From sequence record MT764208.1: a DNA stretch of 64,000 nucleotides; one strand, given 5' to 3'. Shown here piece after piece: positions 25,828-38,862 of the stretch (positions are counted from its first letter, which is position 1; every line of letters begins with the position of its first letter). The translations under genes were made by a program, and so were the position numbers. The notes beneath the pieces were generated by a model. It worked only from the letters and a program-made list of their open reading frames with translations. It searched no databases and was not told where the DNA came from. The DNA comes from Escherichia phage JEP8.

Positions 25828-26162
25828 TTGTAACCCTCCTCTGAAAGCACATCCCAGATCGTTGAGTCAAGGTGCATTAAATTCCACATAATAGAGTCAT
25901 AACTACCGAAGCCAGAAGTAAAAATTACATCACACTGGCGATAGGTCTTATGAAAATCGGTGGCTGTCTCTGCATCAATCGGCATATCGTCACCAGAAAG
26001 CACCAGACATTTAAGAATCATAACTCTGTTAGCCGTTGGCGCTTGCTTAGTCTTTTCAGCATATTTTTCGATGATCCGTTTTGCCTTTTCTTCTTTGATA
26101 CGTCCAGACCAAATCCGGTTTCGGTATTGATTCATAATAATTTCAATCACATCATTTTGCAT
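25824..26162 (-). CDS. Hypothetical protein
   Basis: 112-aa ORF. Confidence 0.45.
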   Translation of the reverse strand: MQNDVIEIIMNQYRNRIWSGRIKEEKAKRIIEKYAEKTKQAPTANRVMILKCLVLSGDDMPIDAETATDFHKTYRQCDVIFTSGFGSYDSIMWNLMHLDSTIWDVLSEEGYK

Positions 26163-26361
26163 TCTTCACGGTCTCCATAATTGTTTTGTAAGCCAGTTTA
26201 AGATGATCACCGAAAAACTTTGCAGTGTTACCCTTCGGATCGCGGAGCATGGTTTCTACGATCTCATCGGCAGTAACAATTTCTCCTTTCTTTGCTGCAT
26301 GTTCTACCATATACTTCAAAGTTTCTTCGGAAGCAAGTGCTGCGGCTACTGGATTAATCAT
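26152..26361 (-). CDS. Hypothetical protein
   Basis: 69 aa after cassette RBS AAGGAGAATCAAA. Confidence 0.45.
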   Translation of the reverse strand: MINPVAAALASEETLKYMVEHAAKKGEIVTADEIVETMLRDPKGNTAKFFGDHLKLAYKTIMETVKNAK

Positions 26362-26390
26362 TTTGATTCTCCTTTGTTGTCGATGTATGC

Positions 26391-26419
26391 ATTATGCTAT
26401 ACCCTATTCCGGTTGTCAA
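26391..26419 (-). promoter_or_regulatory. Early promoter (TTGACA-17-CATAAT)
   Basis: Minus strand TTGACA accggaatagggtatag CATAAT. Confidence 0.5.
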
Positions 26420-26430
26420 CACCTAAAAAC

Positions 26431-26460
26431 GAAAAAGCCACCCTTTCGGATGGCTTTTGA
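26431..26460 (-). terminator. Rho-independent terminator (possibly bidirectional)
   Basis: Hairpin agccatccgaaagggtggct flanked by A-run and T-run. Confidence 0.55.
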
Positions 26461-26688
26461 TTATATTTTATTCTAATCCATTTGTATAGTAGTGTTTGAA
26501 TCGACCTTTGCTAAACTCGTTAAACATAGTAACCAATTTACCACCACTTTCCAATGATAGCACTTCCTCGTCTTAGACGGGTCTTCCGATTCGGCAGTAA
26601 TTGAACACGCGAAAGTATGAGGAAGCCAAATAGTTGTGTTAATGCTAGTATTCTTTTACTTCTGGTATGCATCCCACAGTGACTAACA

Positions 26689-27087
26689 TTAAGCCAGTCG
26701 AGTGAGTTTATAAATTGTTTTAAAGCATAGAGCTTTGATATCGTCTAAAACGCTCTGTAACGAGCTATCAACATCATTATAAATCTCACTAGCCATTTGC
26801 GTTAACTCTTGCAAATAGGCAATTTCGCTCATCTCCTTGCGGACGACCAACGTTGGCTGATAACGACCAGTGATCCCAATATTGGTTTCAGTGAAATCAT
26901 CAACCAATTCTTGCATTTCAAGATAGAACTCTTCTAGAGCCTTATGTTTTGCATAAGATCCAGGACCAGTTACTCCAAAATGCGCAGAATGCATATAAGT
27001 AACACTCATCAGACATTCACCGATAAAGCGGTCAACTTTATTAGCTTTCCCCTCTTCGGACGTCTTTAGAAAATCAATGAATTTCAT
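26689..27087 (-). CDS. Hypothetical protein
   Basis: Start moved to MKFIDFLKTSEEG after SD GGAGAA. Confidence 0.45.
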   Translation of the reverse strand: MKFIDFLKTSEEGKANKVDRFIGECLMSVTYMHSAHFGVTGPGSYAKHKALEEFYLEMQELVDDFTETNIGITGRYQPTLVVRKEMSEIAYLQELTQMASEIYNDVDSSLQSVLDDIKALCFKTIYKLTRLA

Positions 27088-27376
27088 GTTCTTTATTCTC
27101 CATATTATGCAACATAACAAACTGTTGTGCGGCATATTCCCCCATAATAAAACACTGCTTAGAATCCATACATTTACTACGAGCATACATCTTCATAATA
27201 TGGGCATGAAATTTCTGGCTGGTTTCAATGGAAGGAGATATTTTGTTTACATATACTATCATTGCACCGTCGAAATAATCAGTAAAGTCACCAGTTGGAT
27301 CATATTGATCAGCACTGACGCTTCCGACCGCAGTAAAGCATATTGCCGCTGTTAGAGTTTTACGAATAAATGACAT
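27074..27376 (-). CDS. Secreted/periplasmic protein with signal peptide
   Basis: 100 aa; N-terminal MSFIRKTLTAAICFTAVGSVSA looks like a cleavable signal peptide. Confidence 0.5.
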   Translation of the reverse strand: MSFIRKTLTAAICFTAVGSVSADQYDPTGDFTDYFDGAMIVYVNKISPSIETSQKFHAHIMKMYARSKCMDSKQCFIMGEYAAQQFVMLHNMENKEHEIH

Positions 27377-27445
27377 AAGTCATTCCCCCAGATTTAAAAA
27401 TATTCAGTTATATTTATAATCTGGGGCTTTATTTATGATTAACTC

Positions 27446-28042
27446 TTAGTTGGTAGTACCATCAATAAAATGTTTACGGCACACAGAAACATATTTATCC
27501 TCTGCACCAACTTCGATTTGAGCACCATCGCGAATAACATTACCCTCTTTATCTACACGAAGGACCATTGTTGCTTTCTTGCCACAATGACAAATACCCT
27601 TCATTTCGACCAGTTTATCAGCAAATGCCATTAATGCCGCAGATCCTTCAAATAGATTGCCCTGAAAGTCAGTGCGAAGGCCATAGCACAGTACAGGGAT
27701 ATTTGCATCATCAACAAGCGCACACAAGCCTAAAACATGCTCTTTAGTCATAAATTGGGCTTCATCTACAAAAACTGCATCTGGACGCCATCGATCCGGT
27801 CTACGCTTACCTAACGATTCACGATAAACCAAGTCGAAAAGATCATCCGATTTAGTGAAGGTGATCGCTGGAGCACTTAGGCCAATTCGGGAAACAACTT
27901 CACTTTCTGAATCTCGATTATCAATCGCTGGCTTAAGAATTAATACTCGCATATCACGTTCGGTATAGTTATAAGCACTTTGTAACAGGGAAGTTGATTT
28001 GCCAGCGTTCATAGATGCATAGTAGAAATATAATTGCGCCAT
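27446..28042 (-). CDS. tk: Thymidine kinase
   Basis: 198 aa; Walker A MNAGKST, FVDEAQF, C-terminal Zn cysteines (CHCGKKA...VCRKHF); typical TK1-family layout. Confidence 0.9.
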   Translation of the reverse strand: MAQLYFYYASMNAGKSTSLLQSAYNYTERDMRVLILKPAIDNRDSESEVVSRIGLSAPAITFTKSDDLFDLVYRESLGKRRPDRWRPDAVFVDEAQFMTKEHVLGLCALVDDANIPVLCYGLRTDFQGNLFEGSAALMAFADKLVEMKGICHCGKKATMVLRVDKEGNVIRDGAQIEVGAEDKYVSVCRKHFIDGTTN

Positions 28043-28335
28043 TAATTAATCTCCAAAAATCCAGCAAGACCTAAACCGATATAAACCCAGATACAAAGGA
28101 AAAAGAAGCAAACACCCATAGCAAAGATAAATCCGCGTAGTGTCTTTGGATAACCTACCCAATATTCCCGACCATCTTCTAACCGGATCAGCTTATTTCC
28201 TTGAGAGTCCATATCAATTACAACATGTTTATTTCTGGATTGTAACAGATACTGCTTGACAATCTCAATACCCGCCATAATAACAATAACGAAAATAAAA
28301 GTCCACACAACAAGATTAATGATAGTCTCAAGCAT
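28042..28335 (-). CDS. Membrane protein (two TM segments)
   Basis: 97 aa; hydrophobic N- and C-terminal helices. Confidence 0.5.
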   Translation of the reverse strand: MLETIINLVVWTFIFVIVIMAGIEIVKQYLLQSRNKHVVIDMDSQGNKLIRLEDGREYWVGYPKTLRGFIFAMGVCFFFLCIWVYIGLGLAGFLEIN

Positions 28336-28570
28336 TTTCTATCACCTCCACCCAATCAGGTGTTTCCTGAAAGACTCCTTCGCCTTCATGATGGTCGCAA
28401 CCTTTATTGCTGCAATACATCCACCAATCCCACATTCCCCACGGTAAACGATGCATATCGTCGTTACAGCAAGTGAAGATGATAGGCCAACCACATCTAC
28501 CACAACGGCAGTTTTCCTTCATGTGAGCGGTATTAGGCTTCTTCATAGATGACTCCAATATAATCGACAT
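28328..28570 (-). CDS. Cys-rich small protein
   Basis: 80 aa; CRCGRCG...CCNDD...CSNKGCDHHEG. Confidence 0.4.
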   Translation of the reverse strand: MSIILESSMKKPNTAHMKENCRCGRCGWPIIFTCCNDDMHRLPWGMWDWWMYCSNKGCDHHEGEGVFQETPDWVEVIENA

Positions 28571-28737
28571 TTACATTTAGGGCAATGCGGTTCTTTAATA
28601 TAATACCCGTCTGTCTTCGGAACACTAACAGGAGCGGTTTTTATATTGTATTCAGTGAAACAACGAAAACAAGTTACGTTTTCTACAGACTGACGTTTCA
28701 CCCAATCACCGGAATATAGATCATTTTTATTTGTCAT
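28543..28737 (-). CDS. Zinc-ribbon small protein
   Basis: Start moved to MTNKNDLYSG after SD GGTGG; CFRCF...CPKCKC. Confidence 0.4.
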   Translation of the reverse strand: MTNKNDLYSGDWVKRQSVENVTCFRCFTEYNIKTAPVSVPKTDGYYIKEPHCPKCKCRLYWSHL

Positions 28738-29182
28738 ATTCAACCACCACAATGTTAATGTCTGGAGTAGCAATATTAATGATCTCTTCTACACATTCCC
28801 ACTCAAGGCCACCGATACCGCAACCGATTTTAGGAATATAGAAAGGCTGTATAGCACCCTCAAAAACATCATTGAGAGACTCAAATCCTTTCAGGATAGC
28901 ACCATATTCAGCATTTGGACCCGGTCGGAATTGGGTATAGAGATTCACCCCGCACCAGTTATAACCATTAACTTGATGCGTCCAGATACTAAACCCACCC
29001 AACTTTTCTACCTTACCGCGAGAAGTTTGCTTGTCAATCTCTAACGCTTGCGGGAACTCTTTCGCGATCTTCGCAGCAATACCAGCGCCCATAGTATGAA
29101 AACAATTACAACCATGAATTAAATGACCGTTTCCTTGTTTAAACAGGGCGATGAGATCGCCCTTTACAGTATCAATAATCAT
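28727..29182 (-). CDS. Macro-domain protein (ADP-ribose binding/processing)
   Basis: 151 aa; HGCNCFHTMGAGIAAKIAKEF and IGCGIGGLEW are typical macro-domain signatures. Confidence 0.65.
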   Translation of the reverse strand: MIIDTVKGDLIALFKQGNGHLIHGCNCFHTMGAGIAAKIAKEFPQALEIDKQTSRGKVEKLGGFSIWTHQVNGYNWCGVNLYTQFRPGPNAEYGAILKGFESLNDVFEGAIQPFYIPKIGCGIGGLEWECVEEIINIATPDINIVVVEYDK

Positions 29183-29197
29183 AATATAAACCTCTCA

Positions 29198-29557
29198 TTA
29201 GTCACGGGAAGACAACCCAGCCATAAAACGGCTTAACAGTGTGTCGCGATAAGCAAAGCATAATTGCTTATCAGGGGCAGTATCACACAGGTTGCGTTTT
29301 GTTTTAGCAAAGCTGGCAATACTCAGATCCCATGCTCGATTTTTTCGTTTTTCGTCTCGACCTTGTTTATATGCTTCATCAAGTTCGAGCGCGATAAAAT
29401 CACTACACATGTTATCATCATCACAGAAAGTTTTAATGATCTTTTTGTTGATCTCAAATCCTTTGTATTCGAACTTTGGATAAGGGCGCTCATTACTAGC
29501 AAGCGCACCAGCCGAGAACATCATAACAATCATAGCAATTATTGTCAACTTTTTCAT
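29198..29557 (-). CDS. Secreted Cys-containing protein (signal peptide)
   Basis: 119 aa; N-terminal MKKLTIIAMIVMMFSAGALA; four cysteines in the mature part. Confidence 0.5.
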   Translation of the reverse strand: MKKLTIIAMIVMMFSAGALASNERPYPKFEYKGFEINKKIIKTFCDDDNMCSDFIALELDEAYKQGRDEKRKNRAWDLSIASFAKTKRNLCDTAPDKQLCFAYRDTLLSRFMAGLSSRD

Positions 29558-29564
29558 ATATTCC

Positions 29565-30155
29565 TCAATAGCGTTTAGTCTTAAGAATGCCTTTACTCTT
29601 TAGATGGTTAGCCTTTTTTAGTACGTCATCAGCATAACCTAATCCGGCTTTATAGTTCCATCCAGCATTGTAAGAAGCTAGCGCGAGTCTGATATTACCG
29701 TTTCGAATATCCAGCCAGTATGCTAACTCATCCATCGCGTAGAATGCAGAAACCTCGCGATTCATGATAAAGTTGATAGTCTGGCGATCACTCATTTTAA
29801 CACCGCGCTTTGCATTTTTCGCTTTCACCGTTTTAAGGTAATTTTGAAATAATCCATAAGCATGATGATTTTTCTTTGGTGCTAAGTTTGCACCCGCGCT
29901 TGATTCTTGCCATGCGATACCCGCCAGGATGTGACCTAAACCCTTTCCGTTATAGCGAATATTCGGATGGTACTTTTTCAACTTACCGCTTTTCTCGAAT
30001 TGCTCGCCGTATTGATAGGCGAAATGTAAATTATCTAGTTGGTGTGCTGTAAAGTTGTCTATCGGCGCTTTTTTGATCGGTGCGCTAGTCGATGCGTGTG
30101 TAGCACCAACGGCTAGTGACAGACTCAATACTATCGCTTTTAGAACTTTTAACAT
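29565..30155 (-). CDS. Secreted lytic transglycosylase-like protein (SLT domain)
   Basis: 196 aa; signal peptide MLKVLKAIVLSLSLAVGATHA; SLT motifs AWQESS, YGLFQ, ASYNAG. Confidence 0.6.
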   Translation of the reverse strand: MLKVLKAIVLSLSLAVGATHASTSAPIKKAPIDNFTAHQLDNLHFAYQYGEQFEKSGKLKKYHPNIRYNGKGLGHILAGIAWQESSAGANLAPKKNHHAYGLFQNYLKTVKAKNAKRGVKMSDRQTINFIMNREVSAFYAMDELAYWLDIRNGNIRLALASYNAGWNYKAGLGYADDVLKKANHLKSKGILKTKRY

Positions 30156-30240
30156 TAATTTCTCCTGTTTGGCTTAACTTTCTGATTTCATAATATAGCC
30201 CTATCACCAGAAAGTCAAGCATTAACTCAACCAATTTCCA

Positions 30241-30663
30241 TTATTGGTCTACCTTCAAAACAACCGCCGACATTTTACCCGCCAGTCGTTTTGGATTCTC
30301 TATAATCATTCGGCAGCATAGACCGTGATATGGCTTACCCTCTTCGATTAGATCTACTGTCATCCCGATCCACATGTTACCGTCAGTAATTTCTAATCGA
30401 TTAGGTCGGTCTTCCATTTTCAGGAAGTCGAAGATCTCCGGCAAACGAGTTTCTATCTTATTGAATAGTTCCATTGTCTTATGTTCATCGATATGACGAT
30501 CGGTTAGACGGTCGATCATATGCGGACTAAAGCGAATGAAAATATACTCGCCGTAACCATCATTCAAGCACTTTTCTTTGATCTGCGCATTGGTTTTGCG
30601 CATTTCGGTTTCGAAGAATCTACGCAGCTTACTACGGCGAACATGTACGTTAATTGTTTCCAT
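30241..30663 (-). CDS. Hypothetical protein
   Basis: Start moved to METINVHVRR after SD AAGGA. Confidence 0.45.
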   Translation of the reverse strand: METINVHVRRSKLRRFFETEMRKTNAQIKEKCLNDGYGEYIFIRFSPHMIDRLTDRHIDEHKTMELFNKIETRLPEIFDFLKMEDRPNRLEITDGNMWIGMTVDLIEEGKPYHGLCCRMIIENPKRLAGKMSAVVLKVDQ

Positions 30664-30667
30664 TTTA

Positions 30668-31003
30668 TTATCCTTTCTTAAACAAATTGCGAAGCCAGTA
30701 TACAAACGGGATTTCTTTAAACTTGAACTTGTCAATAGTTAATTCTTTAGTAGCAAGATGAATACCATAAGCATCATGTGTAACTATATGCCATTTTCTA
30801 TAGTCCAAATGTGAACAACCGTCTGGATCTAGGTTAATAAGAGTTTCTCGCTCACTAGGATTATTTTTCCACAATTTTGTAATAGGATCGCACATAATTC
30901 GACCTAGCGTACCATGAATAATCTCACAACGGTAAAGTTTTCCAGCAGTGAGATAGGCGCACCCGTCATAGTCGGTATAAACAAACACTTCTTTAACACT
31001 CAT
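30668..31003 (-). CDS. Small paralog 3 (C[SA]HL motif family)
   Basis: Start moved to MSVKEVFVYTDYDG after SD AAGGAG; DGCSHLDYRKWHIV. Confidence 0.45.
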   Translation of the reverse strand: MSVKEVFVYTDYDGCAYLTAGKLYRCEIIHGTLGRIMCDPITKLWKNNPSERETLINLDPDGCSHLDYRKWHIVTHDAYGIHLATKELTIDKFKFKEIPFVYWLRNLFKKG

Positions 31004-31031
31004 TTTAATACTCCTTTGTTTCGATGGGGGT

Positions 31032-31060
31032 ATATTACTACCCCCGATCATGTGTGTCAA
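31032..31060 (-). promoter_or_regulatory. PeSL-like early promoter
   Basis: Minus strand TTGACA cacatgatcgggggtag TAATAT; gggggta..taccccc hairpin. Confidence 0.5.
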
Positions 31061-31306
31061 CTACTTTTTCAAGATTTTTTTGATCACATTCCAAAGACCT
31101 TTATTCTCAGGTTGTTTTGGTTCTTCGATCAGTGTCCATGTTCGACCGTCTAAGTGTGCACAATTTTTAAGACAAATAAAAATCTGGTGTCCCTTATCAT
31201 CACGGATATAACCACTATTCGCAAATCTTTCATGTGGTGTATATTCATACAGTGTATTTGGTGTAATATACTTGCGGTTACTATAAGGTGTCATCACATA
31301 CATCAT
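31061..31306 (-). CDS. Small paralog 2 (C[SA]HL motif family)
   Basis: Start moved to MMYVMTPYSN after SD GGGAG; CAHLDGRTWTLI. Confidence 0.45.
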   Translation of the reverse strand: MMYVMTPYSNRKYITPNTLYEYTPHERFANSGYIRDDKGHQIFICLKNCAHLDGRTWTLIEEPKQPENKGLWNVIKKILKK

Positions 31307-31497
31307 GGTACTAACTCCCATTTATCACCGCGAAGATGAGAACATCCACCATCAAGAAGGATCGTAATACGAAACCCCGCATCATCTTCAATATACCCGA
31401 TAGTCGGTGGATGTTCGTCGTCTCGTGCCGGGGTAAAATCATACATCTTCCCCGGTGTGATATCATTGCCTTTATTGCTATTGGTATAAACTTGCAT
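31303..31497 (-). CDS. Small paralog 1 (C[SA]HL motif family)
   Basis: 64 aa; GGCSHLRGDKWELV. Confidence 0.45.
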   Translation of the reverse strand: MQVYTNSNKGNDITPGKMYDFTPARDDEHPPTIGYIEDDAGFRITILLDGGCSHLRGDKWELVP

Positions 31498-31518
31498 TTT
31501 CTTAATCTCCTATATTAA

Positions 31519-32303: not shown

Positions 32304-32720
32304 TTAGAGAGATTCGGTAAAGGTACGAGCGATAACATCACGTTGCTGGTCTGGAGTCAGACTATTGAAGCGCACTGCGTAACCAGAAACGCGAATTGTA
32401 AGCTGCGGGTACTTCTCAGGATGTTCAACAGCGTCCAGCAACATTTCTCGTAACAATACATTAACATTCAAATGCTGACCACCTTCGACAACCGGAGCAC
32501 CATTATCTACAATGACAGGACGGAAGCTAGTTGTGTGCAGTGCCAGCGAATCGACGTCTTCTGCGGTGATCACATGGTCTTCTGCGAAAGTTTTACTAAC
32601 AATTACTTTAGCACCGATCAGTGCTTTCGGTTCGGATACCAGAATCATAGGCGCGAAGTGTCCACCAATAATAGTACCTTTATGCTCACCTTTCATGATT
32701 TGAATTGCTTTAAATTCCAT
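32304..32720 (-). CDS. grcA: Autonomous glycyl-radical cofactor (GrcA/YfiD-like)
   Basis: 138 aa; C-terminus [11 protein letters not shown]...[39 protein letters not shown] nearly identical to E. coli GrcA as recalled; glycyl-radical motif RVSGYAV. Confidence 0.85.
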
Positions 32721-33821: not shown

Positions 33822-34013
33822 TTAGATTCCTGCAATCCTGCATAGAGTTCTTGTATTAGCACCAATCAGGATAGCATTGACTACAACCATTCCCCAATCA
33901 ACCCACGGATTATTATAAATGCTAAATCCGTTTGTTATGCCAAATACAAGCATTCCGGTACACATACTCAGAGCAATAATCAACATCACGGTAAAACCAA
34001 ATGCAAATTTCAT
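33822..34013 (-). CDS. Small membrane protein
   Basis: 63 aa, two hydrophobic helices. Confidence 0.45.
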   Translation of the reverse strand: MKFAFGFTVMLIIALSMCTGMLVFGITNGFSIYNNPWVDWGMVVVNAILIGANTRTLCRIAGI

Positions 34014-34014
34014 A

Positions 34015-34281
34015 TTATTTTCCTTTTCTCTGTTTACGTTTATAAAAGTAATACATTACCTCATCGCGTCCGGTGATCCAACATGCTAGGGCAGTAAACA
34101 GGTTTACAATTCCCAACACACCTACTGACGCGGCGCTGTCAACAGACATAGGAACAGTAAAGGCCATAGCTAACATAGCAATGCCACAAATGACATTAAG
34201 CACCATTATAATAAGACCGAAGAAAACCATTGTCAATCCTCCCAAATAAGAAAACCAACAATCACGCCAGTGATAAGACAT
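34015..34281 (-). CDS. Small membrane protein
   Basis: 88 aa, hydrophobic, basic C-terminus. Confidence 0.45.
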   Translation of the reverse strand: MSYHWRDCWFSYLGGLTMVFFGLIIMVLNVICGIAMLAMAFTVPMSVDSAASVGVLGIVNLFTALACWITGRDEVMYYFYKRKQRKGK

Positions 34282-34412
34282 GATGCGCCGCTAATAAGAC
34301 AACCAGCACCAAGTGATTCCCACCAGATCAGAGAAGCGACAATAACGCAAATTCCCCAGACTACCGCAATCACAACATAGGCAAGGGTCGCCCAAAACAT
34401 ATATTTGTTCAT
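34233..34412 (-). CDS. Small membrane protein (59 aa)
   Basis: Below ORF-track cutoff; ATG overlaps the upstream stop in ATGA; MNKYMFWATLAYVVIAVVWGICVIVASLIWW... Confidence 0.4.
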   Translation of the reverse strand: MNKYMFWATLAYVVIAVVWGICVIVASLIWWESLGAGCLISGASCLITGVIVGFLIWED

Positions 34413-34597
34413 AATAAACCCAACTCACCAAACAAATAAGAAAAAAGCCATATCAACAGAAACGAGGCAATTGATCCGACAAGCAAAATGATATTAGAGA
34501 ATCCACCGTCTACCCAGGCAACAAAACAGAATACGCTAGTATAGAAGCATAAACCCATTACAAAGCATACTATAAGCAACCATAGATAAAACGTCAT
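34409..34597 (-). CDS. Small membrane protein
   Basis: 62 aa, hydrophobic. Confidence 0.45.
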   Translation of the reverse strand: MTFYLWLLIVCFVMGLCFYTSVFCFVAWVDGGFSNIILLVGSIASFLLIWLFSYLFGELGLL

Positions 34598-34658
34598 AGA
34601 AAGTCCTCCAGCGAGATAAATTAGTGCGGGTAGTGGAATGTACTACCCGCTTTGTTAA

Positions 34659-34817
34659 TCAACGCAGAGCTTCTTCTAGCGCGATCCCAAACCATCCACA
34701 AACAACGCCCATACAGACAGCTACAAGAAGATTCATTCTCTCTTTAGGGATCATTGCAATCATAACAACAACCATACAGAAAGCCATTACCATTGATGTT
34801 AACATTTGTTCAACCAT
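34659..34817 (-). CDS. Small membrane protein (52 aa)
   Basis: Below ORF-track cutoff; SD AAGGTG; MVEQMLTSMVMAFCMVVVMIAMIPKE... Confidence 0.4.
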   Translation of the reverse strand: MVEQMLTSMVMAFCMVVVMIAMIPKERMNLLVAVCMGVVCGWFGIALEEALR

Positions 34818-34819
34818 TA

Positions 34820-35152
34820 TCACACCTTTAAAGTCATAGACGCATAAACATTAATGCCAGGCCAGTTAGGATCGCAATTATACTCAACATCCCACAAATA
34901 AAGCGGTTTAGATGTATCAGCCAAGTTTTTAAAATCTTCTACCCACATTTCAAGGCTATATGATGGATAAACTAGGCTATCATATCCGCCGTAACGTTGG
35001 CCTACTGGTCGGTCAGTAAAAACTACCTCAAGATCCGGTAATTCTTTTTCAAGGATAACCGCCAGCGCATAAATCAGACGGTCTTCCTTGTTACGCTGCC
35101 GAAGGACCGTTGTCAGTTGGTTTTTCTGGTTCACTAGCAAGCACCTCCACAT
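34820..35152 (-). CDS. Hypothetical protein (start uncertain)
   Basis: ORF track 34820-35158 begins with GTG; overlaps the upstream ORF. Confidence 0.35.
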   Translation of the reverse strand: MWRCLLVNQKNQLTTVLRQRNKEDRLIYALAVILEKELPDLEVVFTDRPVGQRYGGYDSLVYPSYSLEMWVEDFKNLADTSKPLYLWDVEYNCDPNWPGINVYASMTLKV

Positions 35153-35411
35153 TTTCACAGAATGAAATTTTCACAGACACAATTTTACCATAAGTGAAGA
35201 ATGAATATACATTATCGATATATTCAACGTCACCTACAATCACATCAAACTGCGGATCAGCAACCGCCGCAACATATTCTACCAGTTCATCAAGAGAATG
35301 CAACTTAATTTCATCAATTCGGCTGTATTTGGTTGCATCTTTGATTTTAAAACCACGTTCTTTCAGCTTATCAATTAGAATTTCACGCGGAGTTTCAAAC
35401 AGTTTGCTCAT
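35091..35411 (-). CDS. Hypothetical protein
   Basis: 106 aa; SD GAGGA. Confidence 0.45.
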   Translation of the reverse strand: MSKLFETPREILIDKLKERGFKIKDATKYSRIDEIKLHSLDELVEYVAAVADPQFDVIVGDVEYIDNVYSFFTYGKIVSVKISFCENVEVLASEPEKPTDNGPSAA

Positions 35412-35432
35412 AATATAATCCTCACATTAAAT

Positions 35433-35633
35433 CTAAAATTTGTTAACGACGAATTGCATAATTAGACTAATCATAAACATTGCAAACCAAGTATAAATGC
35501 AACAGATAAAAGCTACATACAATTCAATCTGGTCAGAGAATACACCGGGTAAAAGCATTAGCAAAATAACAACAGTAAAGACGCTAGCGATACCCGCAAC
35601 AAAACCAATATCATTTTTACTAATCGTCATCAA
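35433..35633 (-). CDS. Small membrane protein
   Basis: 66 aa, two hydrophobic helices. Confidence 0.45.
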   Translation of the reverse strand: MMTISKNDIGFVAGIASVFTVVILLMLLPGVFSDQIELYVAFICCIYTWFAMFMISLIMQFVVNKF

Positions 35634-35827
35634 GTCACCGTTTTGTAAAGAAACACAATAAAATCCAAGACAAGAAAGACAGTGTAAATGATCATCGTCA
35701 AGACAGTAAACACTGTCAAATTTTCATCGTTAGTTAATTCATAGTCGCCCATCCATACAATAACAAGATATAGCATTGAAAGAATGGAAGCACCTACTAA
35801 GTTAAAAAACATATTCTTTAGCGTCAT
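35630..35827 (-). CDS. Small membrane protein
   Basis: 65 aa; ATGA overlap with upstream gene. Confidence 0.45.
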   Translation of the reverse strand: MTLKNMFFNLVGASILSMLYLVIVWMGDYELTNDENLTVFTVLTMIIYTVFLVLDFIVFLYKTVT

Positions 35828-35828
35828 G

Positions 35829-36011
35829 TTAACAATCCTCGCGGCTTAAGTCAACAGCAATTGCATACAGAATAATGAATATACTAGCAGATCCGAGAAT
35901 CAATGCACCGTCACATTTTGAAACTCGCTCATCAAAATGCAACATTATCCATCCGAGGATGTTAAAGGCGCACACCGCGCCTATGTTATCTAACCAATTA
36001 ATCTTTTTCAT
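35829..36011 (-). CDS. Small membrane protein
   Basis: 60 aa, hydrophobic. Confidence 0.4.
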   Translation of the reverse strand: MKKINWLDNIGAVCAFNILGWIMLHFDERVSKCDGALILGSASIFIILYAIAVDLSREDC

Positions 36012-36019
36012 AATATACC

Positions 36020-36346
36020 TTAGAAAGAAACAGTTTTCAAGAAATCCAGATTTTCAGTACCGAATACAGAAAAGTAGTGTTTTCCTTTTTCGGTTTTAGA
36101 GAAAGCGATTGTCTTCTCTACATGGTGACGGAAGCCAGACAGACGATCACCCAGGTCAAGGCGGCAAGCGTAAGTAGTGCCGTTTTCGAAAGTAACCTCG
36201 ATTTGAGTTTTGTCGTATTCGCTTTCATAGGCTTTTGCTGCCGCTTCCAGTGCTTTACGCTCGAAGTCTTCGAAGTGGAATACTTCGTTTGCGTTAGCGA
36301 ATACAGAAGATTCAGAGAAGATAACTTTAACAGATACTGGTTTCAT
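36020..36346 (-). CDS. Hypothetical protein
   Basis: 108 aa, soluble. Confidence 0.5.
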   Translation of the reverse strand: MKPVSVKVIFSESSVFANANEVFHFEDFERKALEAAAKAYESEYDKTQIEVTFENGTTYACRLDLGDRLSGFRHHVEKTIAFSKTEKGKHYFSVFGTENLDFLKTVSF

Positions 36347-36387
36347 TTGATACTCCTTAGTAGTTCGTGTTTCGTTTCGATGGGTGT

Positions 36388-36416
36388 ATTATGCTATACA
36401 CCCTCTCGTGTGTCAA
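36388..36416 (-). promoter_or_regulatory. PeSL-like early promoter
   Basis: Minus strand TTGACA cacgagagggtgtatag CATAAT; gggtgta..tacaccc hairpin spans the -10. Confidence 0.5.
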
Positions 36417-36424
36417 CAACTTTT

Positions 36425-36613
36425 TTAGTCTTTTTTCATAATTTCTAGAGCAGTTTCTACAGCACCTTTCCAACCCTCCCACATAATGGACATAGTAATG
36501 AAGTTAAAGCACCCGCAGGAATCAGCCTTTTTAGAAATAAACCATTCTGCAAACTCTTCGCTCATACCATGCTCTTTAGCGGATTCGCGTAATTGTTCAA
36601 TTTGGTCTTCCAT
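36425..36613 (-). CDS. Hypothetical protein
   Basis: 62-aa ORF. Confidence 0.4.
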   Translation of the reverse strand: MEDQIEQLRESAKEHGMSEEFAEWFISKKADSCGCFNFITMSIMWEGWKGAVETALEIMKKD

Positions 36614-36622
36614 AGTATCACC

Positions 36623-36823
36623 TCAACACTTAACGTTATTCAAACGATTTTGAAAGTACATATAGCAAGCATAATTTTGTTTTGGCTGTACCGTATCAGA
36701 TAAGCACGCTTTTACAGCCTCGCGGTCCGATGGGTCTACGCCCTCAGCGTTAAGCAATGCTAAGATCTGATAATAGCGTACTCTCAGTTGCGTTAATGGT
36801 TTCTCTCCCATAAAACCCTCCAA
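36623..36823 (-). CDS. Hypothetical protein
   Basis: 66-aa ORF. Confidence 0.4.
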   Translation of the reverse strand: MEGFMGEKPLTQLRVRYYQILALLNAEGVDPSDREAVKACLSDTVQPKQNYACYMYFQNRLNNVKC

Positions 36824-37051
36824 TTAAAGTTGTTCTGCAATGTATGCGGTGCATTTACGGAGTTTAGCCATCGCACCACCTTTCATGTCGCTTGCACCTA
36901 CAAGGTTCATAATCTCTAAGCGGTCAGCCGGATTCAGTCTAGTAGCCCAGATCTGGTTAGCCAGTTCCATTTTACCCATCTGCGGTTCCATCTCTAACAG
37001 TTCGCGCTCAAATTCGATAATTTCTTTTGCTGCGTCTTTAAAGTTAATCAT
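36824..37051 (-). CDS. Hypothetical protein
   Basis: 75-aa ORF. Confidence 0.45.
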   Translation of the reverse strand: MINFKDAAKEIIEFERELLEMEPQMGKMELANQIWATRLNPADRLEIMNLVGASDMKGGAMAKLRKCTAYIAEQL

Positions 37052-37080
37052 TTTGGTCCTCCCGTTTCGTTGATGGTTAT

Positions 37081-37109
37081 ATTGTAGGGGAGTTATCCTC
37101 CCCTGTCAA
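37081..37109 (-). promoter_or_regulatory. PeSL-like early promoter
   Basis: Minus strand TTGACA ggggaggataactcccc TACAAT; perfect hairpin spacer. Confidence 0.55.
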
Positions 37110-37117
37110 CACTTTTA

Positions 37118-37303
37118 TCAGAAATATGCAATATAGTTTGCCAGTCCTACAGAGTCATCATTCGGCATTGCTTTTACTGCCAGTTCAAACCCTGCTTCAA
37201 CTTTCTGTTTAGCGGATTCTTCGTTATAACCCCAGATTACCAGAATAGCTACTACGTTTTCTTTGCTTACTGCTTTAAGTGCTTTAGTGATGCGACGTGC
37301 CAT
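37118..37303 (-). CDS. Hypothetical protein
   Basis: 61 aa after cassette RBS GGAGAATCAAATT. Confidence 0.45.
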   Translation of the reverse strand: MARRITKALKAVSKENVVAILVIWGYNEESAKQKVEAGFELAVKAMPNDDSVGLANYIAYF

Positions 37304-37349
37304 AATTTGATTCTCCGTTTAAGAAAGTGTGTTTCGTTTCGATGGGTGT

Positions 37350-37378
37350 ATTATGCTATAGGCCGGATCTGGTGTCAA
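37350..37378 (-). promoter_or_regulatory. Early promoter (TTGACA-17-CATAAT)
   Basis: Minus strand TTGACA ccagatccggcctatag CATAAT then conserved leader. Confidence 0.5.
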
Positions 37379-37403
37379 CAACTTTTTTAAAAAAATTTTA
37401 GGC

Positions 37404-37431
37404 AATAAAAAAGCCACTCCGAAGAGTGGCT
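37404..37431 (-). terminator. Rho-independent terminator
   Basis: Hairpin agccactcttcggagtggct followed by TTTTTTATT on the minus strand. Confidence 0.55.
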
Positions 37432-37576
37432 TATAGGGAAGGTAGCGAATCTTCCTTGTCTCCAACCTGCTAGCGGACTAGCAAGTGAATGCTTTAGCGT
37501 ACCGGATCGCCCACATACGCTGTAATAAATGCGGCTAGGTGACGTCCAAATCATTCTAACCGCGCTGTCTTTAGTT
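37432..37576 (-). ncRNA. Candidate small structured RNA (late-promoter to terminator, no ORF)
   Basis: About 150-190 nt without an ORF of 12 aa or more; bounded upstream by minus-strand TATAAATA (37583-37590) and downstream by the terminator; four or five predicted hairpins; GC-richer than flanks. Confidence 0.25.
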
Positions 37577-37581
37577 CACTA

Positions 37582-37800
37582 TTATTTATATCGCTTTCTC
37601 TCGCGACGTTTTTGATCTTCTTCCTTGATAGAGTTAAATGCATCAAAAAGACACATGACACTGATAATGAACATAACCGTATTTTCTACGATATCCCACG
37701 GCTTCGCATCAGTACAGATCCCCCAAACGGTAAGAAATGCAAATAAGGCAGAAGAGATCACAAGCATGATACTTGCTAAGATATAAAAAGTCATTTTCAT
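37582..37800 (-). CDS. Small membrane protein
   Basis: 72 aa; hydrophobic with basic C-terminus (KRRERKRYK). Confidence 0.45.
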   Translation of the reverse strand: MKMTFYILASIMLVISSALFAFLTVWGICTDAKPWDIVENTVMFIISVMCLFDAFNSIKEEDQKRRERKRYK

Positions 37801-37991
37801 GGTTTTACCTCAATTCTTCGATATTCATCACACATCCACGCAGTAAGCAAGAATCCCAACACATAAGCAACAAAATACGTTAATGCTTCTTCTGGTTCGG
37901 TGCTATGCGCCATCATCAGACCAGCGAGAAAGGTCTTAACAATTACATTTAAAATAATTAGCCACGCAAATAATTTCATCGTTTGCCCCAT
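37797..37991 (-). CDS. Small membrane protein
   Basis: 64 aa; ATGA overlap with upstream gene. Confidence 0.45.
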   Translation of the reverse strand: MGQTMKLFAWLIILNVIVKTFLAGLMMAHSTEPEEALTYFVAYVLGFLLTAWMCDEYRRIEVKP

Positions 37992-38200
37992 TTCGGACGA
38001 GTCTGTTCAAACTTATACATTACGTAACAATCTCGAATCATCCACGTAACAAGAGCACCAGTCAACACAGACAACACACAGAAGAAGTAAAACGGTCCGG
38101 TTGCATTATCAACATGAGCAAGCCATGTAAAGAAAACACATGCAAGGAATGTAAAGAACATCATAAAGCACAAAAAAGCGAAATATTTTATACTACTCAT
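37976..38200 (-). CDS. Small membrane protein
   Basis: ORF track starts at TTG; ATG at MSSIKYFAFLCFMMFF... Confidence 0.45.
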   Translation of the reverse strand: MSSIKYFAFLCFMMFFTFLACVFFTWLAHVDNATGPFYFFCVLSVLTGALVTWMIRDCYVMYKFEQTRPKWGKR

Positions 38201-38307
38201 ATCGCCACCATACAACAGATCATAAGAAAACCCAACGCAATAAGAATTGCATCAAATTTAGTGAACTCCGGTCCACCTATCAACATCATTCGTTCCTGTT
38301 CAGTCAT
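38197..38307 (-). CDS. Small membrane protein (36 aa)
   Basis: Below ORF-track cutoff; ATGA overlaps at both ends; MTEQERMMLIGGPEFTKFDAILIALGFLMICCMVAI. Confidence 0.3.
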   Translation of the reverse strand: MTEQERMMLIGGPEFTKFDAILIALGFLMICCMVAI

Positions 38308-38546
38308 AGATCACAGATCCATCTAAAAGCACCACATACAGCGATCAGGAGTGTAGGAACACTTGAGAAGAAAACCAACGTACAAAAATCATCTAGTGTA
38401 ATACCGGAATAACTACCGACTGCAATCACACCGATGATCAGACACAGAAAGAAAACAAATGCAATCAGAAACAAAGTATTGCTAAACAGTTTAGTGATCA
38501 TTAGACACCCCACGACGATCAATTTCAAAAACTTTTTTATCATCAA
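38304..38546 (-). CDS. Small membrane protein
   Basis: 80 aa, three hydrophobic segments. Confidence 0.45.
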   Translation of the reverse strand: MMIKKFLKLIVVGCLMITKLFSNTLFLIAFVFFLCLIIGVIAVGSYSGITLDDFCTLVFFSSVPTLLIAVCGAFRWICDL

Positions 38547-38694
38547 CGAAGCATGTCACAACTGCCTCGTTGACTTCCGCAAATTGTTGTGTTACCCACT
38601 TAAGGTCAGATCGAAACAATGTTCTATTAATAACAAATGTTTTACCGCTCTTATCCTTACCCATAAATTTTGCTTTAACCATATCCAATTCCAT
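38491..38694 (-). CDS. Hypothetical protein
   Basis: 67 aa; SD AAGGTGA. Confidence 0.45.
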   Translation of the reverse strand: MELDMVKAKFMGKDKSGKTFVINRTLFRSDLKWVTQQFAEVNEAVVTCFVDDKKVFEIDRRGVSNDH

Positions 38695-38703
38695 ATTATC
38701 ACC

Positions 38704-38862
38704 TTATTTGCTAATCGCTAAACCTAATCCGAAGAGAGCACCCGAGGCTACAGTATACCCGAAAGTTTCAAAGGCAGTAAAGACATCTAAGCCACCAGCT
38801 AACAGAGTTGCAGTAAACAGAGTACCAGCTACGAACATAAAAGTTTTACCGATAAATTTCAT
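38704..38862 (-). CDS. Small membrane/secreted protein (52 aa)
   Basis: Below ORF-track cutoff; cassette RBS GGAGAATCAAAAA; MKFIGKTFMFVAGTLFTATLLAGG... Confidence 0.4.
   Translation of the reverse strand: MKFIGKTFMFVAGTLFTATLLAGGLDVFTAFETFGYTVASGALFGLGLAISK

What the first reader, a model, noticed from the sequence alone, without database searches (positions are those of the whole stretch)
27074..30155. Cluster of signal-peptide proteins including an SLT-type lytic transglycosylase
Three early-strand genes encode proteins with N-terminal signal peptides: 27074-27376, 29198-29557 (four Cys) and 29565-30155 (ES / GLFQ / SYNAG motifs of soluble lytic transglycosylases). A periplasm-targeted murein enzyme expressed early, next to a small secreted Cys protein, may remodel the cell wall or act in superinfection exclusion; the small neighbour could be its regulator.
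Basis: partly seen in the sequence, partly recalled or inferred. Interest (0 to 1): 0.5.

Follow-up and report, generated by a model that had tools for sequence, protein, structure and literature searches.

The report
T4-type rI, vs and vs.1 genes
The three "secreted" genes are the already catalogued T4-family genes rI (lysis-timing antiholin), vs and vs.1 (a small exported cell-wall-cutting enzyme), so the find is ordinary. The exception is vs, which is annotated as acting on a cytoplasmic enzyme yet looks like an exported protein.

Summary
The window is an RB49-like T4-type coliphage (Krischvirus, about 98% DNA identity).

- **27074-27376** is rI, the periplasmic antiholin.
- **29198-29557** is vs, annotated "valyl-tRNA synthetase modifier".
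- **29565-30155** is vs.1.

All three have Sec-type signal peptides.

**Vs** has four invariant Cys and a predicted four-helix mature domain. In seven of seven lineages checked it lies immediately 3' of vs.1, from an 8-nt overlap to a 7-nt gap. But vs.1 also occurs without vs in Aeromonas T4-like phages, Ackermannviridae and Ounavirinae.

rI lies 1.8 kb away, behind six genes for cytoplasmic or membrane proteins, so only vs.1-vs is a real pair.

**Verdict:** known genes. The one thing worth following is the clash between the Vs annotation (cytoplasmic ValRS binder) and its exported-protein features.

The parts
29565..30155 (-). vs.1: 196-aa precursor of a Sec-exported, single-domain family-1 (SLT/GH23) lytic transglycosylase
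30093..30155 (-). Signal peptide of Vs.1 (aa 1-21, predicted cleavage THA|ST)
   Evidence: Rule-based scan. 22/23 homologues have one. Low pLDDT for residues 1-30.
29904..29906 (-). Codon GAA for the catalytic Glu84 of Vs.1 (WQES motif)
   Evidence: Read directly from the sequence. Invariant in 23 homologues and in the T4, Acinetobacter, Aeromonas, Kuttervirus, Mooglevirus and Vibrio-phage homologues.
29198..29557 (-). vs: 119-aa precursor of a small exported four-Cys helical protein (family PF26829, annotated 'valyl-tRNA synthetase modifier')
   Evidence: phrog_1256 E 2e-33. Annotated vs in RB49. PF26829 on its close homologues. Four invariant Cys plus G114 and L115. AF2 mature domain is four helices with pLDDT about 90.
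29498..29557 (-). Signal peptide of Vs (aa 1-20, predicted cleavage ALA|SN)
   Evidence: The N-terminal about 20 residues vary in sequence but are uniformly hydrophobic across 34 homologues.
29558..29567 (-). vs.1 stop codon / vs ribosome-binding-site junction (TGAGGAATAT then ATG): a 7-nt spacer with the GAGGA site overlapping the stop codon
   Evidence: Read from the sequence. The same junction is an 8-nt overlap in T4 and a 1-4-nt overlap in L006, L009, L010/L011, L012 and L013.
30190..30218 (-). Sigma-70-like promoter candidate TTGACT-17-TATTAT between regB and vs.1, followed by the AGGAG ribosome-binding site
   Evidence: 10/12 consensus match and sequence. The 1986 T4 record marks a potential -35/-10 at the equivalent place before ORF 61.4 = vs.1. 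Consensus match only: promoter-like sites are not enriched in the region (18 found against 14.8 expected).
27074..27376 (-). rI: 100-aa precursor of the periplasmic antiholin RI (lysis inhibition)
   Evidence: Pfam Antiholin PF24205, 83.1 bits, E 1.2e-23. phrog_1246. Annotated rI in RB49. Matches PDB 6psk/6psh antiholin at E 0.009. Conserved Cys pair C69/C75.
27311..27376 (-). Signal peptide of RI (aa 1-22, predicted cleavage VSA|DQ)
   Evidence: T4 RI was shown experimentally to have a cleavable Sec signal peptide (PMC8385771).
27446..29182 (-). Intervening genes not predicted to be exported: tk, a 97-aa two-TM protein, two small zinc-binding-domain proteins, and the tk.4 macro-domain protein
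   Evidence: Pfam TK, Phage_zn_bind, Phage_zn_bind_2 and Macro. PHROGs. TM scan.

Best explanation
The region is the conserved regB - vs.1 - vs - tk.4 ... tk - rI block of a T4-type (RB49-like Krischvirus) phage.

**Shown or strongly supported**
- Vs.1 is made as a precursor with a cleavable Sec signal peptide. Its mature domain of about 175 aa, strongly basic (pI about 9.9), is a one-domain family-1 lytic transglycosylase.
- It has the single catalytic Glu (E84, in the E-S motif), the GLFQ, SYNAG and Tyr motifs, and a goose-lysozyme/SLT fold.
- Vs is made from the next cistron, whose ribosome-binding site overlaps the vs.1 stop codon. It also carries a cleavable signal peptide, and its mature part is a four-helix protein with four invariant Cys.
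- RI is the periplasmic antiholin.

**Inferred**
- The genes are read leftward from early promoters, as the T4 orthologues are (early RNA, protein from mid-infection).
- Vs.1 is exported well before holin triggering. In the periplasm it cuts MurNAc-GlcNAc bonds non-hydrolytically, giving 1,6-anhydroMurNAc ends.
- It therefore locally remodels or pre-weakens the sacculus during infection. It works alongside the cytoplasmic e-type endolysin that the phage also has, not in place of it.
- Vs, folded with disulfides in the periplasm, is the most likely physical partner of Vs.1 (restraining, targeting or stabilising it) in Straboviridae.
- RI works separately, on the holin.

The biochemical identities are firm. 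The physiological role of Vs.1 and any Vs-Vs.1 contact are hypotheses.
For: **Identity**
- 98% DNA identity to RB49, ECD7 and FL20, whose annotation gives rI, tk, tk.4, vs, vs.1 and regB in this order. T4 has the same order.

**Vs.1**
- Pfam SLT above the gathering score.
- E84, G101, S161, Y162, A164, G165 and Y174 invariant. The motifs are kept in ten divergent homologues.
- No invariant second acidic residue between E84 and G101. This fits a transglycosylase rather than a g-type lysozyme.
- Signal peptides in 22/23 homologues.
- Homologues in 2085 phage records.
- A separate T4 e-type lysozyme lies at 44383-44868.

**Expression**
- T4 vs and vs.1 are classed 'early RNA, middle protein' and both proteins were detected by mass spectrometry (PMC9697503 supplement).
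- Promoter-like site before vs.1.

**Vs**
- 34/34 homologues have signal peptides, and 32/34 have exactly four Cys in the mature part.
- Helical model.
- Full-length His-tagged T4 Vs was insoluble in the E. coli cytoplasm (PMC8076793).

**Pairing**
- vs lies immediately 3' of vs.1, from an 8-nt overlap to a 7-nt gap, in the window, T4, L006, L009, L010/L011, L012 and L013.

**RI**
-. Cleavable signal peptide shown for T4 RI (PMC8385771).
Against: - No enzymatic, localisation or genetic data exist for Vs.1 in the literature I could search.
- The signal-peptide calls come from a simple rule-based script, not SignalP.
- vs.1 occurs without vs in Aeromonas phage 31, Kuttervirus, Mooglevirus and a Vibrio Ackermannviridae phage. 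Vs therefore cannot be an obligatory partner.
- No Vs-SLT fusion protein exists among 1.84 billion representatives.
- The Vs fold has no informative structural relative and does not resemble known lysozyme inhibitors.
- Vs.1 is strongly basic while Vs is near neutral, so there is no obvious charge complementarity.
- Vs is annotated as binding cytoplasmic ValRS (Muller and Marchin, cited in PMC8076793). From my own memory of the 1960s-70s literature, T4 infection stabilises a temperature-sensitive ValRS in vivo, which needs Vs in the cytoplasm.
- Adjacency in T4-like phages may reflect only conserved synteny.
Confidence: 0.7

Rival explanations
1. Vs is what its annotation says: a cytoplasmic protein that binds host valyl-tRNA synthetase. 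On this view its hydrophobic N-terminus is not used for export, or only part of the pool is exported. Its position next to vs.1 is inherited gene order with no functional meaning.
For: - Annotated 'valyl-tRNA synthetase modifier' in RB49, T4 and PHROG 1256.
- The biochemical work of Muller and Marchin is cited in PMC8076793.
- vs.1 functions without vs in several phage groups.
- No Vs-SLT fusions exist.
- From memory, T4 rescues ts-ValRS hosts in vivo.
Against: - All 34 homologues keep an n/h/c-type signal with an AxA-like site, while the sequence of that segment drifts freely. That is the pattern of a true signal peptide.
- The four invariant Cys are spaced CX5C and CX8C at helix ends. This is not a typical zinc knuckle.
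- The protein was insoluble when made in the cytoplasm with an N-terminal tag.
- vs is always translationally coupled to an exported enzyme.
- The 1986 T4 sequence record names this ORF only 'ORF 60.9'. I could not trace the basis for equating it with the genetic locus vs.
Confidence: 0.3
2. Vs.1 acts in superinfection exclusion or resistance to lysis from without, by altering the murein that incoming phage must cross.
For: It is early-expressed and periplasmic, like the known T4 exclusion proteins Imm and Sp (timing; the comparison with Imm and Sp is from my own knowledge).
Against: - A glycan-cutting enzyme would ease rather than block penetration.
- No similarity to Sp or Imm was found.
- No experimental hint turned up in the searched literature.
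Confidence: 0.07
3. Vs.1 is a secreted (signal-peptide) endolysin, that is, the phage's main lysis enzyme, or a virion-borne murein enzyme used at entry.
For: - SLT-domain endolysins and virion transglycosylases exist. Weak PHROG hits to a 'lytic tail protein' and an 'internal virion protein' (E 0.002-0.005).
Against: - The phage has a T4 e-type lysozyme, and T4-type lysis uses e, t and the spanins (established knowledge).
- T4 vs.1 RNA is early, not late.
- A cleavable Sec signal is not expected on a virion protein assembled in the cytoplasm.
- Only the SLT core matches the tail and virion proteins, and those are much larger.
Confidence: 0.05
4. Vs.1 is a catalytically dead SLT-like murein-binding protein.
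For: The Pfam score is only modestly above threshold, and PDB sequence hits are marginal.
Against: The catalytic Glu and all family-1 motifs are invariant across Straboviridae, Ackermannviridae and Ounavirinae homologues. That argues for selection on catalysis.
Confidence: 0.05

Closest known systems
Phage T4 Vs.1 (ORF 61.4, NP_049725; PHROG 600)
   Same: Orthologue. 52.5% identity over 158 aa. Same position between regB and vs. Same signal peptide and the same WQES, G(L/M)FQN and SYN(A/S)G motifs.
   Different: The window protein is 15 aa longer, with an extra low-confidence segment after the signal peptide. Neither protein has a demonstrated function. The SLT similarity of T4 vs.1 was already noted (PMC1524935).
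Family-1 bacterial lytic transglycosylases (E. coli Slt70, MltC, MltE; P. aeruginosa Slt, MltF, MltD)
   Different: Vs.1 is only the catalytic domain. It has no superhelical, LysM, lipoprotein-anchor or ABC-type accessory modules. Sequence identity is 13-22%. It is phage-encoded and soluble.
'Specialised' small secreted transglycosylases of secretion systems (EtgA of the EPEC type III system; VirB1, IagB and IpgF by my own knowledge)
   Different: The sequence match is not significant. There is no secretion apparatus here, and Vs is unrelated to EscI. The analogy is functional only and untested.
Phage T4 Vs (ORF 60.9, P13310; Pfam PF26829 ValRS_modifier)
   Same: Same family. 29% identity, the same four Cys, the same C-terminal GL(S/L)xR, the same signal-type N-terminus, and the same position 3' of vs.1.
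   Different: It diverges very fast: tblastn with the window protein does not reach T4-type Vs. The ValRS-binding activity described for T4 has not been tested for any RB49-type protein.
Phage T4 RI antiholin (PDB 6psh, 6psk; Pfam PF24205)
   Same: Family member by HMM (83 bits). Conserved Cys pair. Adjacent to rI.-1 and downstream of tk. Signal peptide present.
   Different: Only about 19% identity to T4 RI in the alignment. The gene rI.1, present between tk and rI in T4, is absent here.

Membership tests
Family-1 lytic transglycosylase (Pfam SLT PF01464, GH23) | Match to the SLT profile above the curated threshold | tested here: met
   25.6 bits against a cut-off of 21.3, E 9.6e-6, residues 76-167.
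Family-1 lytic transglycosylase (Pfam SLT PF01464, GH23) | Catalytic Glu in an E-S motif at the end of a helix | tested here: met
   W-Q-E84-S. Invariant in 23 homologues and in ten divergent phage homologues, one of which has E-T. It lies at the end of helix 74-84 in the model.
Family-1 lytic transglycosylase (Pfam SLT PF01464, GH23) | Motifs II-IV (G-L-x-Q, A/S-Y-N-x-G, downstream Tyr) | tested here: met
   GLFQ 101-104, SYNAG 161-165 and Y174. G101, S161, Y162, A164, G165 and Y174 are invariant. The motif definition is from my own knowledge of the Blackburn and Clarke classification.
Family-1 lytic transglycosylase (Pfam SLT PF01464, GH23) | Goose-lysozyme/SLT alpha-helical catalytic fold | tested here: met
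Family-1 lytic transglycosylase (Pfam SLT PF01464, GH23) | Non-hydrolytic cleavage giving 1,6-anhydroMurNAc, with no second catalytic carboxylate | tested here: inconclusive
   No invariant Asp or Glu between E84 and G101 in the alignment, which fits a transglycosylase. The reaction product itself cannot be tested with these tools.
Sec-exported periplasmic protein | Tripartite cleavable signal peptide (basic n-region, hydrophobic h-region, small residues at -3 and -1) | tested here: met
   Rule-based scan: RI, Vs and Vs.1 all positive. 34/34 Vs and 22/23 Vs.1 homologues positive. SignalP was not available.
Sec-exported periplasmic protein | Demonstrated export and cleavage | not testable with these tools
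   Shown experimentally only for T4 RI (PMC8385771). I found nothing for Vs or Vs.1.
T4 RI antiholin (Pfam PF24205) | Profile match above threshold, conserved Cys pair, synteny with rI.-1 and tk | tested here: met
   83.1 bits against 27. C69 and C75 invariant. RB49 and T4 gene order.
T4 RI antiholin (Pfam PF24205) | Binds the periplasmic domain of holin T and imposes lysis inhibition | not testable with these tools
   Known for T4 RI (abstract of PMC8385771). Not examined for this phage.
Vs / ValRS_modifier family (Pfam PF26829, PHROG 1256) | Sequence membership | tested here: met
   phrog_1256 E 2e-33. Homologues at 80-97% identity carry PF26829. Aligns with T4 Vs with all four Cys conserved.
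Vs / ValRS_modifier family (Pfam PF26829, PHROG 1256) | Binds and modifies host valyl-tRNA synthetase | not testable with these tools
   Reported for T4 (Muller and Marchin, cited in PMC8076793). No data for RB49-type phages.
Vs / ValRS_modifier family (Pfam PF26829, PHROG 1256) | Cytoplasmic location, as required to meet ValRS | tested here: not met
   Sequence predicts a cleavable signal peptide in every family member, plus four invariant Cys. This is a prediction only, and a cytoplasmic precursor pool cannot be excluded.

The most novel reading that the evidence does not exclude
The protein family annotated for decades as 'valyl-tRNA synthetase modifier' (Vs) may be primarily an exported, disulfide-bonded periplasmic protein. 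On this reading its real partner is the co-translated lytic transglycosylase Vs.1, acting for example as a phage-encoded regulator or inhibitor of a murein enzyme. The ValRS association would then be secondary: a precursor pool, a moonlighting activity, a post-lysis association in extracts, or a mis-assignment of the genetic locus to this ORF.
Probability: 0.25. Interest if true: 0.6.

Novelty: already known. Interest (0 to 1): 0.27.

Why it matters
As it stands the finding re-discovers three catalogued T4-family genes, so it adds little.

Vs.1 remains a worthwhile target. It is one of the most widely conserved uncharacterised early genes of large virulent myoviruses: 2085 phage records across Straboviridae, Ackermannviridae and Ounavirinae. 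It is an enzyme with an obvious assay, yet no role is known for a transglycosylase exported long before lysis.

The Vs discrepancy matters for annotation. Hundreds of phage genomes propagate 'valyl-tRNA synthetase modifier', or even 'valyl-tRNA synthetase', for a protein that by sequence should leave the cytoplasm. Resolving this would either reveal a new periplasmic partner of a murein enzyme or show how an apparent secretory protein acts on a cytoplasmic synthetase.

Tried and rejected
- **Vs as a paralogue of RI** (both are small, exported, helical and have a CX5C pair). hhalign probability 4.6%; rejected.
- **Vs-SLT fusion proteins ('Rosetta stone').** There are 28 representatives in 1.84 billion proteins. 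All are stand-alone at 77-136 aa, apart from one 2552-aa hit that is an ankyrin-repeat protein and spurious.
- **Direct PDB sequence relatives of Vs.1.** None by phmmer. The profile gives only EtgA at E 0.06.
- **NCBIfam names for the three proteins and the 97-aa membrane protein.** None.
- **Non-coding RNA in 26000-31500.** No Rfam match at E <= 0.1.
- **Charge complementarity between mature Vs.1 and Vs.** Not evident.
- **Literature on vs.1 or Vs function.** Ten full-text searches. Only Nolan 2006 (SLT similarity), the 2022 T4 omics tables, the 2021 RI signal-peptide paper and a 2021 expression screen were relevant. Miller 2003 and Muller and Marchin 1975 are not held.


Full report
**What the window is.** The 4.3-kb stretch around the finding is 98% identical to RB49-group coliphages (genus Krischvirus, Straboviridae; FL20, ECD7, RB49). 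The 196-aa protein is 100% identical to that of phage GEC-3S. RB49's annotation over the aligned stretch reads, on the same strand: regB, vs.1, vs, tk.4, three unnamed small genes, tk, rI, rI.-1. T4 has the same order. All real genes here are on the minus strand, consistent with the negative GC skew of positions 1-44000. ORFs on the plus strand all lie within genes on the other strand. No Rfam family matches in 26000-31500.

**Checking the observation.** The three ORFs exist as stated. A rule-based scan (basic n-region, uncharged hydrophobic h-region, small residues at -3 and -1) predicts these cleavable signals:
- RI: ...AVGSVSA|DQ
- Vs: ...SAGALA|SN
- Vs.1: ...VGATHA|ST

This is my own crude script, not SignalP, but the prediction is backed by conservation. 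34 of 34 Vs homologues (two N-terminally short and scoring weakly) and 22 of 23 Vs.1 homologues have such an N-terminus; the exception is truncated. The sequence of that segment drifts freely while its hydrophobic character is kept. For T4 RI the signal peptide has been shown experimentally to be cleaved after Ala24, with the mature protein released into the periplasm (PMC8385771). The four Cys of the 119-aa protein are real and invariant (C45, C51, C91, C100). The ES, GLFQ and SYNAG motifs of the 196-aa protein are real.

**Is it a cluster?** In a rough gene call of the window (about 116 genes), the only proteins that look soluble and exported are these three. The other hydrophobic N-termini belong to tiny membrane proteins. 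So the grouping is somewhat more than chance. However, vs.1 and vs are adjacent, while rI lies 1.8 kb further on. Between them are thymidine kinase, a two-TM 97-aa protein, two small zinc-binding-domain proteins and the macro-domain protein Tk.4. In Acinetobacter-type T4-like phages and two metagenomic relatives the block is compact: vs.1, vs, about 141 aa, about 99 aa, rI. In the Acinetobacter phage L006, where I translated them, all five have signal-like N-termini. An 'envelope' gene neighbourhood may therefore be ancestral, interrupted here by tk and its neighbours.

**Vs.1 (29565-30155).**
- Pfam SLT is matched above the curated threshold (25.6 against 21.3 bits). PHROG 600 is labelled 'unknown function'.
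- Across 23 homologues E84, G101, S161, Y162, A164, G165 and Y174 are invariant. The same motifs are present in T4, Acinetobacter, Aeromonas, Kuttervirus, Mooglevirus and Vibrio-phage homologues.
- There is no invariant second carboxylate after the catalytic Glu. This fits a lytic transglycosylase rather than a g-type lysozyme.
- By sequence profile the nearest solved structure is EtgA, the small secreted transglycosylase of a type III secretion system, at a non-significant E 0.06.
- The mature protein is about 19.8 kDa and very basic (pI 9.9).
- tblastn finds homologues in 2085 phage records: Straboviridae of many hosts, Ackermannviridae and Ounavirinae.
- The phage also encodes a T4 e-type lysozyme at 44383-44868, so Vs.1 is an additional murein enzyme, not the endolysin.
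- In T4, vs.1 and vs belong to the 'early RNA, middle protein' class and both proteins were detected (PMC9697503 supplement).
- A TTGACT-17-TATTAT site and an AGGAG ribosome-binding site precede vs.1. The 1986 T4 record marks a potential promoter at the equivalent place. This is a consensus match only.

**Vs (29198-29557).** PHROG 1256 and RB49's annotation call it 'valyl-tRNA synthetase modifier'. Its close relatives carry Pfam PF26829, ValRS_modifier.
- The family is small, fast-evolving and phage-restricted. There are 28 representatives among 1.84 billion clustered proteins, all stand-alone at 77-136 aa apart from one spurious ankyrin-repeat hit.
- The window protein shares only 29% identity with T4 Vs.
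- Invariant features are the four Cys (spaced CX5C and CX8C), Y63, G66 and a C-terminal G-L.
- The model shows a disordered signal segment and a four-helix mature domain with pLDDT about 90. Its fold search returns only generic helical bundles. It is unrelated to RI.
- T4 Vs has the textbook signal MTKILVLCIGLISFSASASA|DTS. The mature form would be 11.0 kDa against 13.1 kDa for the precursor.
- In a systematic expression study, N-terminally His-tagged T4 Vs ('Valyl') was insoluble in the E. coli cytoplasm (PMC8076793).

Every sequence feature says 'exported, disulfide-bonded'. The annotation says 'binds a cytoplasmic synthetase'. I could not read the original papers. The 1986 sequence record names the ORF only 'ORF 60.9'. 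From memory, T4 infection stabilises temperature-sensitive ValRS in vivo, which argues for a cytoplasmic pool. I leave this as an unresolved contradiction.

**The vs.1-vs pair.** The two cistrons are separated by 7 nt here, with the vs ribosome-binding site overlapping the vs.1 stop codon. They overlap by 8 nt in T4 and by 1-4 nt in L006, L009, L010/L011, L012 and L013. The upstream genes were confirmed as Vs.1 homologues. In all seven lineages where I found vs, it sits directly after vs.1. The reverse does not hold. Aeromonas phage 31 has vs.1 followed by unrelated genes. The Kuttervirus, Mooglevirus and Vibrio Ackermannviridae homologues have no Vs-like neighbour. Vs is therefore a lineage-specific companion, not a requirement for Vs.1.

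**RI (27074-27376).** It matches Pfam Antiholin strongly (E 1.2e-23). It matches the solved T4 RI chains weakly but specifically (E 0.009). It keeps the conserved Cys pair. It is the antiholin that binds holin T and mediates lysis inhibition in T4 (abstract of PMC8385771). It needs no new explanation.

**How it most likely works.**
- Shown by sequence and structure prediction: Vs.1 is a signal-peptide-bearing single-domain family-1 lytic transglycosylase, Vs is a signal-peptide-bearing four-Cys helical protein translated from the next, coupled cistron, and RI is the antiholin.
- Inferred: Vs.1 is exported through Sec from early or mid infection. It nicks glycan strands from the periplasmic side well before the holin fires, remodelling or pre-weakening the sacculus as an accessory to, not a substitute for, e-lysozyme lysis.
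- Also inferred: Vs is its likeliest partner in Straboviridae, perhaps restraining an enzyme that would otherwise be dangerous while progeny are being made.

The precedent of small secreted transglycosylases that work with a small partner (EtgA-EscI, listed) shows that such an arrangement exists elsewhere, nothing more.

Rivals are Vs as a genuinely cytoplasmic ValRS modifier with meaningless adjacency, Vs.1 in superinfection exclusion, Vs.1 as endolysin or virion enzyme, and Vs.1 as an inactive binder. They are weighed in their own sections. The first is serious. The others are poorly supported.

**Known or new.** The genes are annotated in dozens of genomes. The SLT similarity of vs.1 was reported by Nolan et al. 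[quoted passage not shown] No paper in the searchable library reports a function for Vs.1 or comments on the Vs signal peptide. That library lacks most subscription-journal papers, so absence is weak evidence. The finding is therefore 'already known' as a feature.

What remains open is the role of a very widespread exported phage transglycosylase, and the annotation conflict for Vs.

**Verdict.** Interest is low to moderate (0.27). The most novel reading not excluded is that Vs is really a periplasmic partner of Vs.1 (probability about 0.25, interest 0.6 if true).

Noticed in passing
window 29198-29557; also L002 3887-4234 (T4 vs): The family annotated 'valyl-tRNA synthetase modifier' has a Sec-type signal peptide and four invariant Cys in all 34 homologues. 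This conflicts with a cytoplasmic target. Some phage records even label it 'valyl-tRNA synthetase'.
   Followed up: partly
L006 2432-4278; L012 1983-3829; L013 1983-3847: In Acinetobacter-type T4-like phages, vs.1, vs, an approximately 141-aa gene, an approximately 99-aa gene and rI are contiguous. In L006, where I translated them, all five have signal-like or membrane-anchor N-termini. This looks like a compact 'periplasmic' gene block.
   Followed up: partly
window 30668-31497 (minus strand): Three tandem small paralogues (130, 86 and 64 aa; 28-36% identity). They share a motif of the form I-x-L ... C-(S/A)-H-L ... W. No Pfam match.
   Followed up: partly
window 33822-38862 (minus strand): A dense run of at least a dozen tiny ORFs (52-88 aa). 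Each is predicted to have one to three transmembrane segments.
   Followed up: no
window 32304-32720 (minus strand): A 138-aa protein ending in a glycyl-radical domain (Pfam Gly_radical, E 1.5e-16). It is the GrcA-like 'vs.6' type, a spare glycyl-radical module.
   Followed up: no
window 44383-44868 (plus strand): A homologue of T4 lysozyme (gene e), 43% identity, at the point where the coding strand switches.
   Followed up: no
window 26689-27186 and 27074-27376: The longest ORF for rI.-1 (165 aa) would overlap rI by 113 nt. RB49 annotates rI.-1 as 132 aa (399 nt), so the real start is probably the internal ATG, giving a short overlap.
   Followed up: partly
window 28328-28773 (minus strand): Two adjacent small Cys-rich proteins match two different 'phage zinc binding domain' families (PF23895, PF23903). 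The longest ORFs overlap by 28 nt, and RB49 annotates shorter versions.
   Followed up: no
L003 2495-3112, L004 2501-3049, L005 2501-3076: Vs.1 homologues of Kuttervirus, Mooglevirus and a Vibrio Ackermannviridae phage, none of which has a vs neighbour, carry 3-5 Cys. Nearly all Straboviridae Vs.1 proteins have none in the mature part. Aeromonas phage 31 breaks the pattern: it has no vs and no Cys.
   Followed up: partly
L004 1-3049 (Shigella phage ESh20, Mooglevirus): Here the Vs.1 homologue lies directly downstream of rIIA and a 373-aa gene. This is a different neighbourhood from the T4-like phages, but again next to genes annotated as lysis-related.
   Followed up: no
L014 (GenBank X04567, T4 58.3-65.5 kb, 1986): The original T4 sequence record names the vs and vs.1 ORFs only 'ORF 60.9' and 'ORF 61.4'. 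It marks a potential -35/-10 promoter just before ORF 61.4. The later assignment of the genetic locus vs to ORF 60.9 could not be traced here.
   Followed up: no
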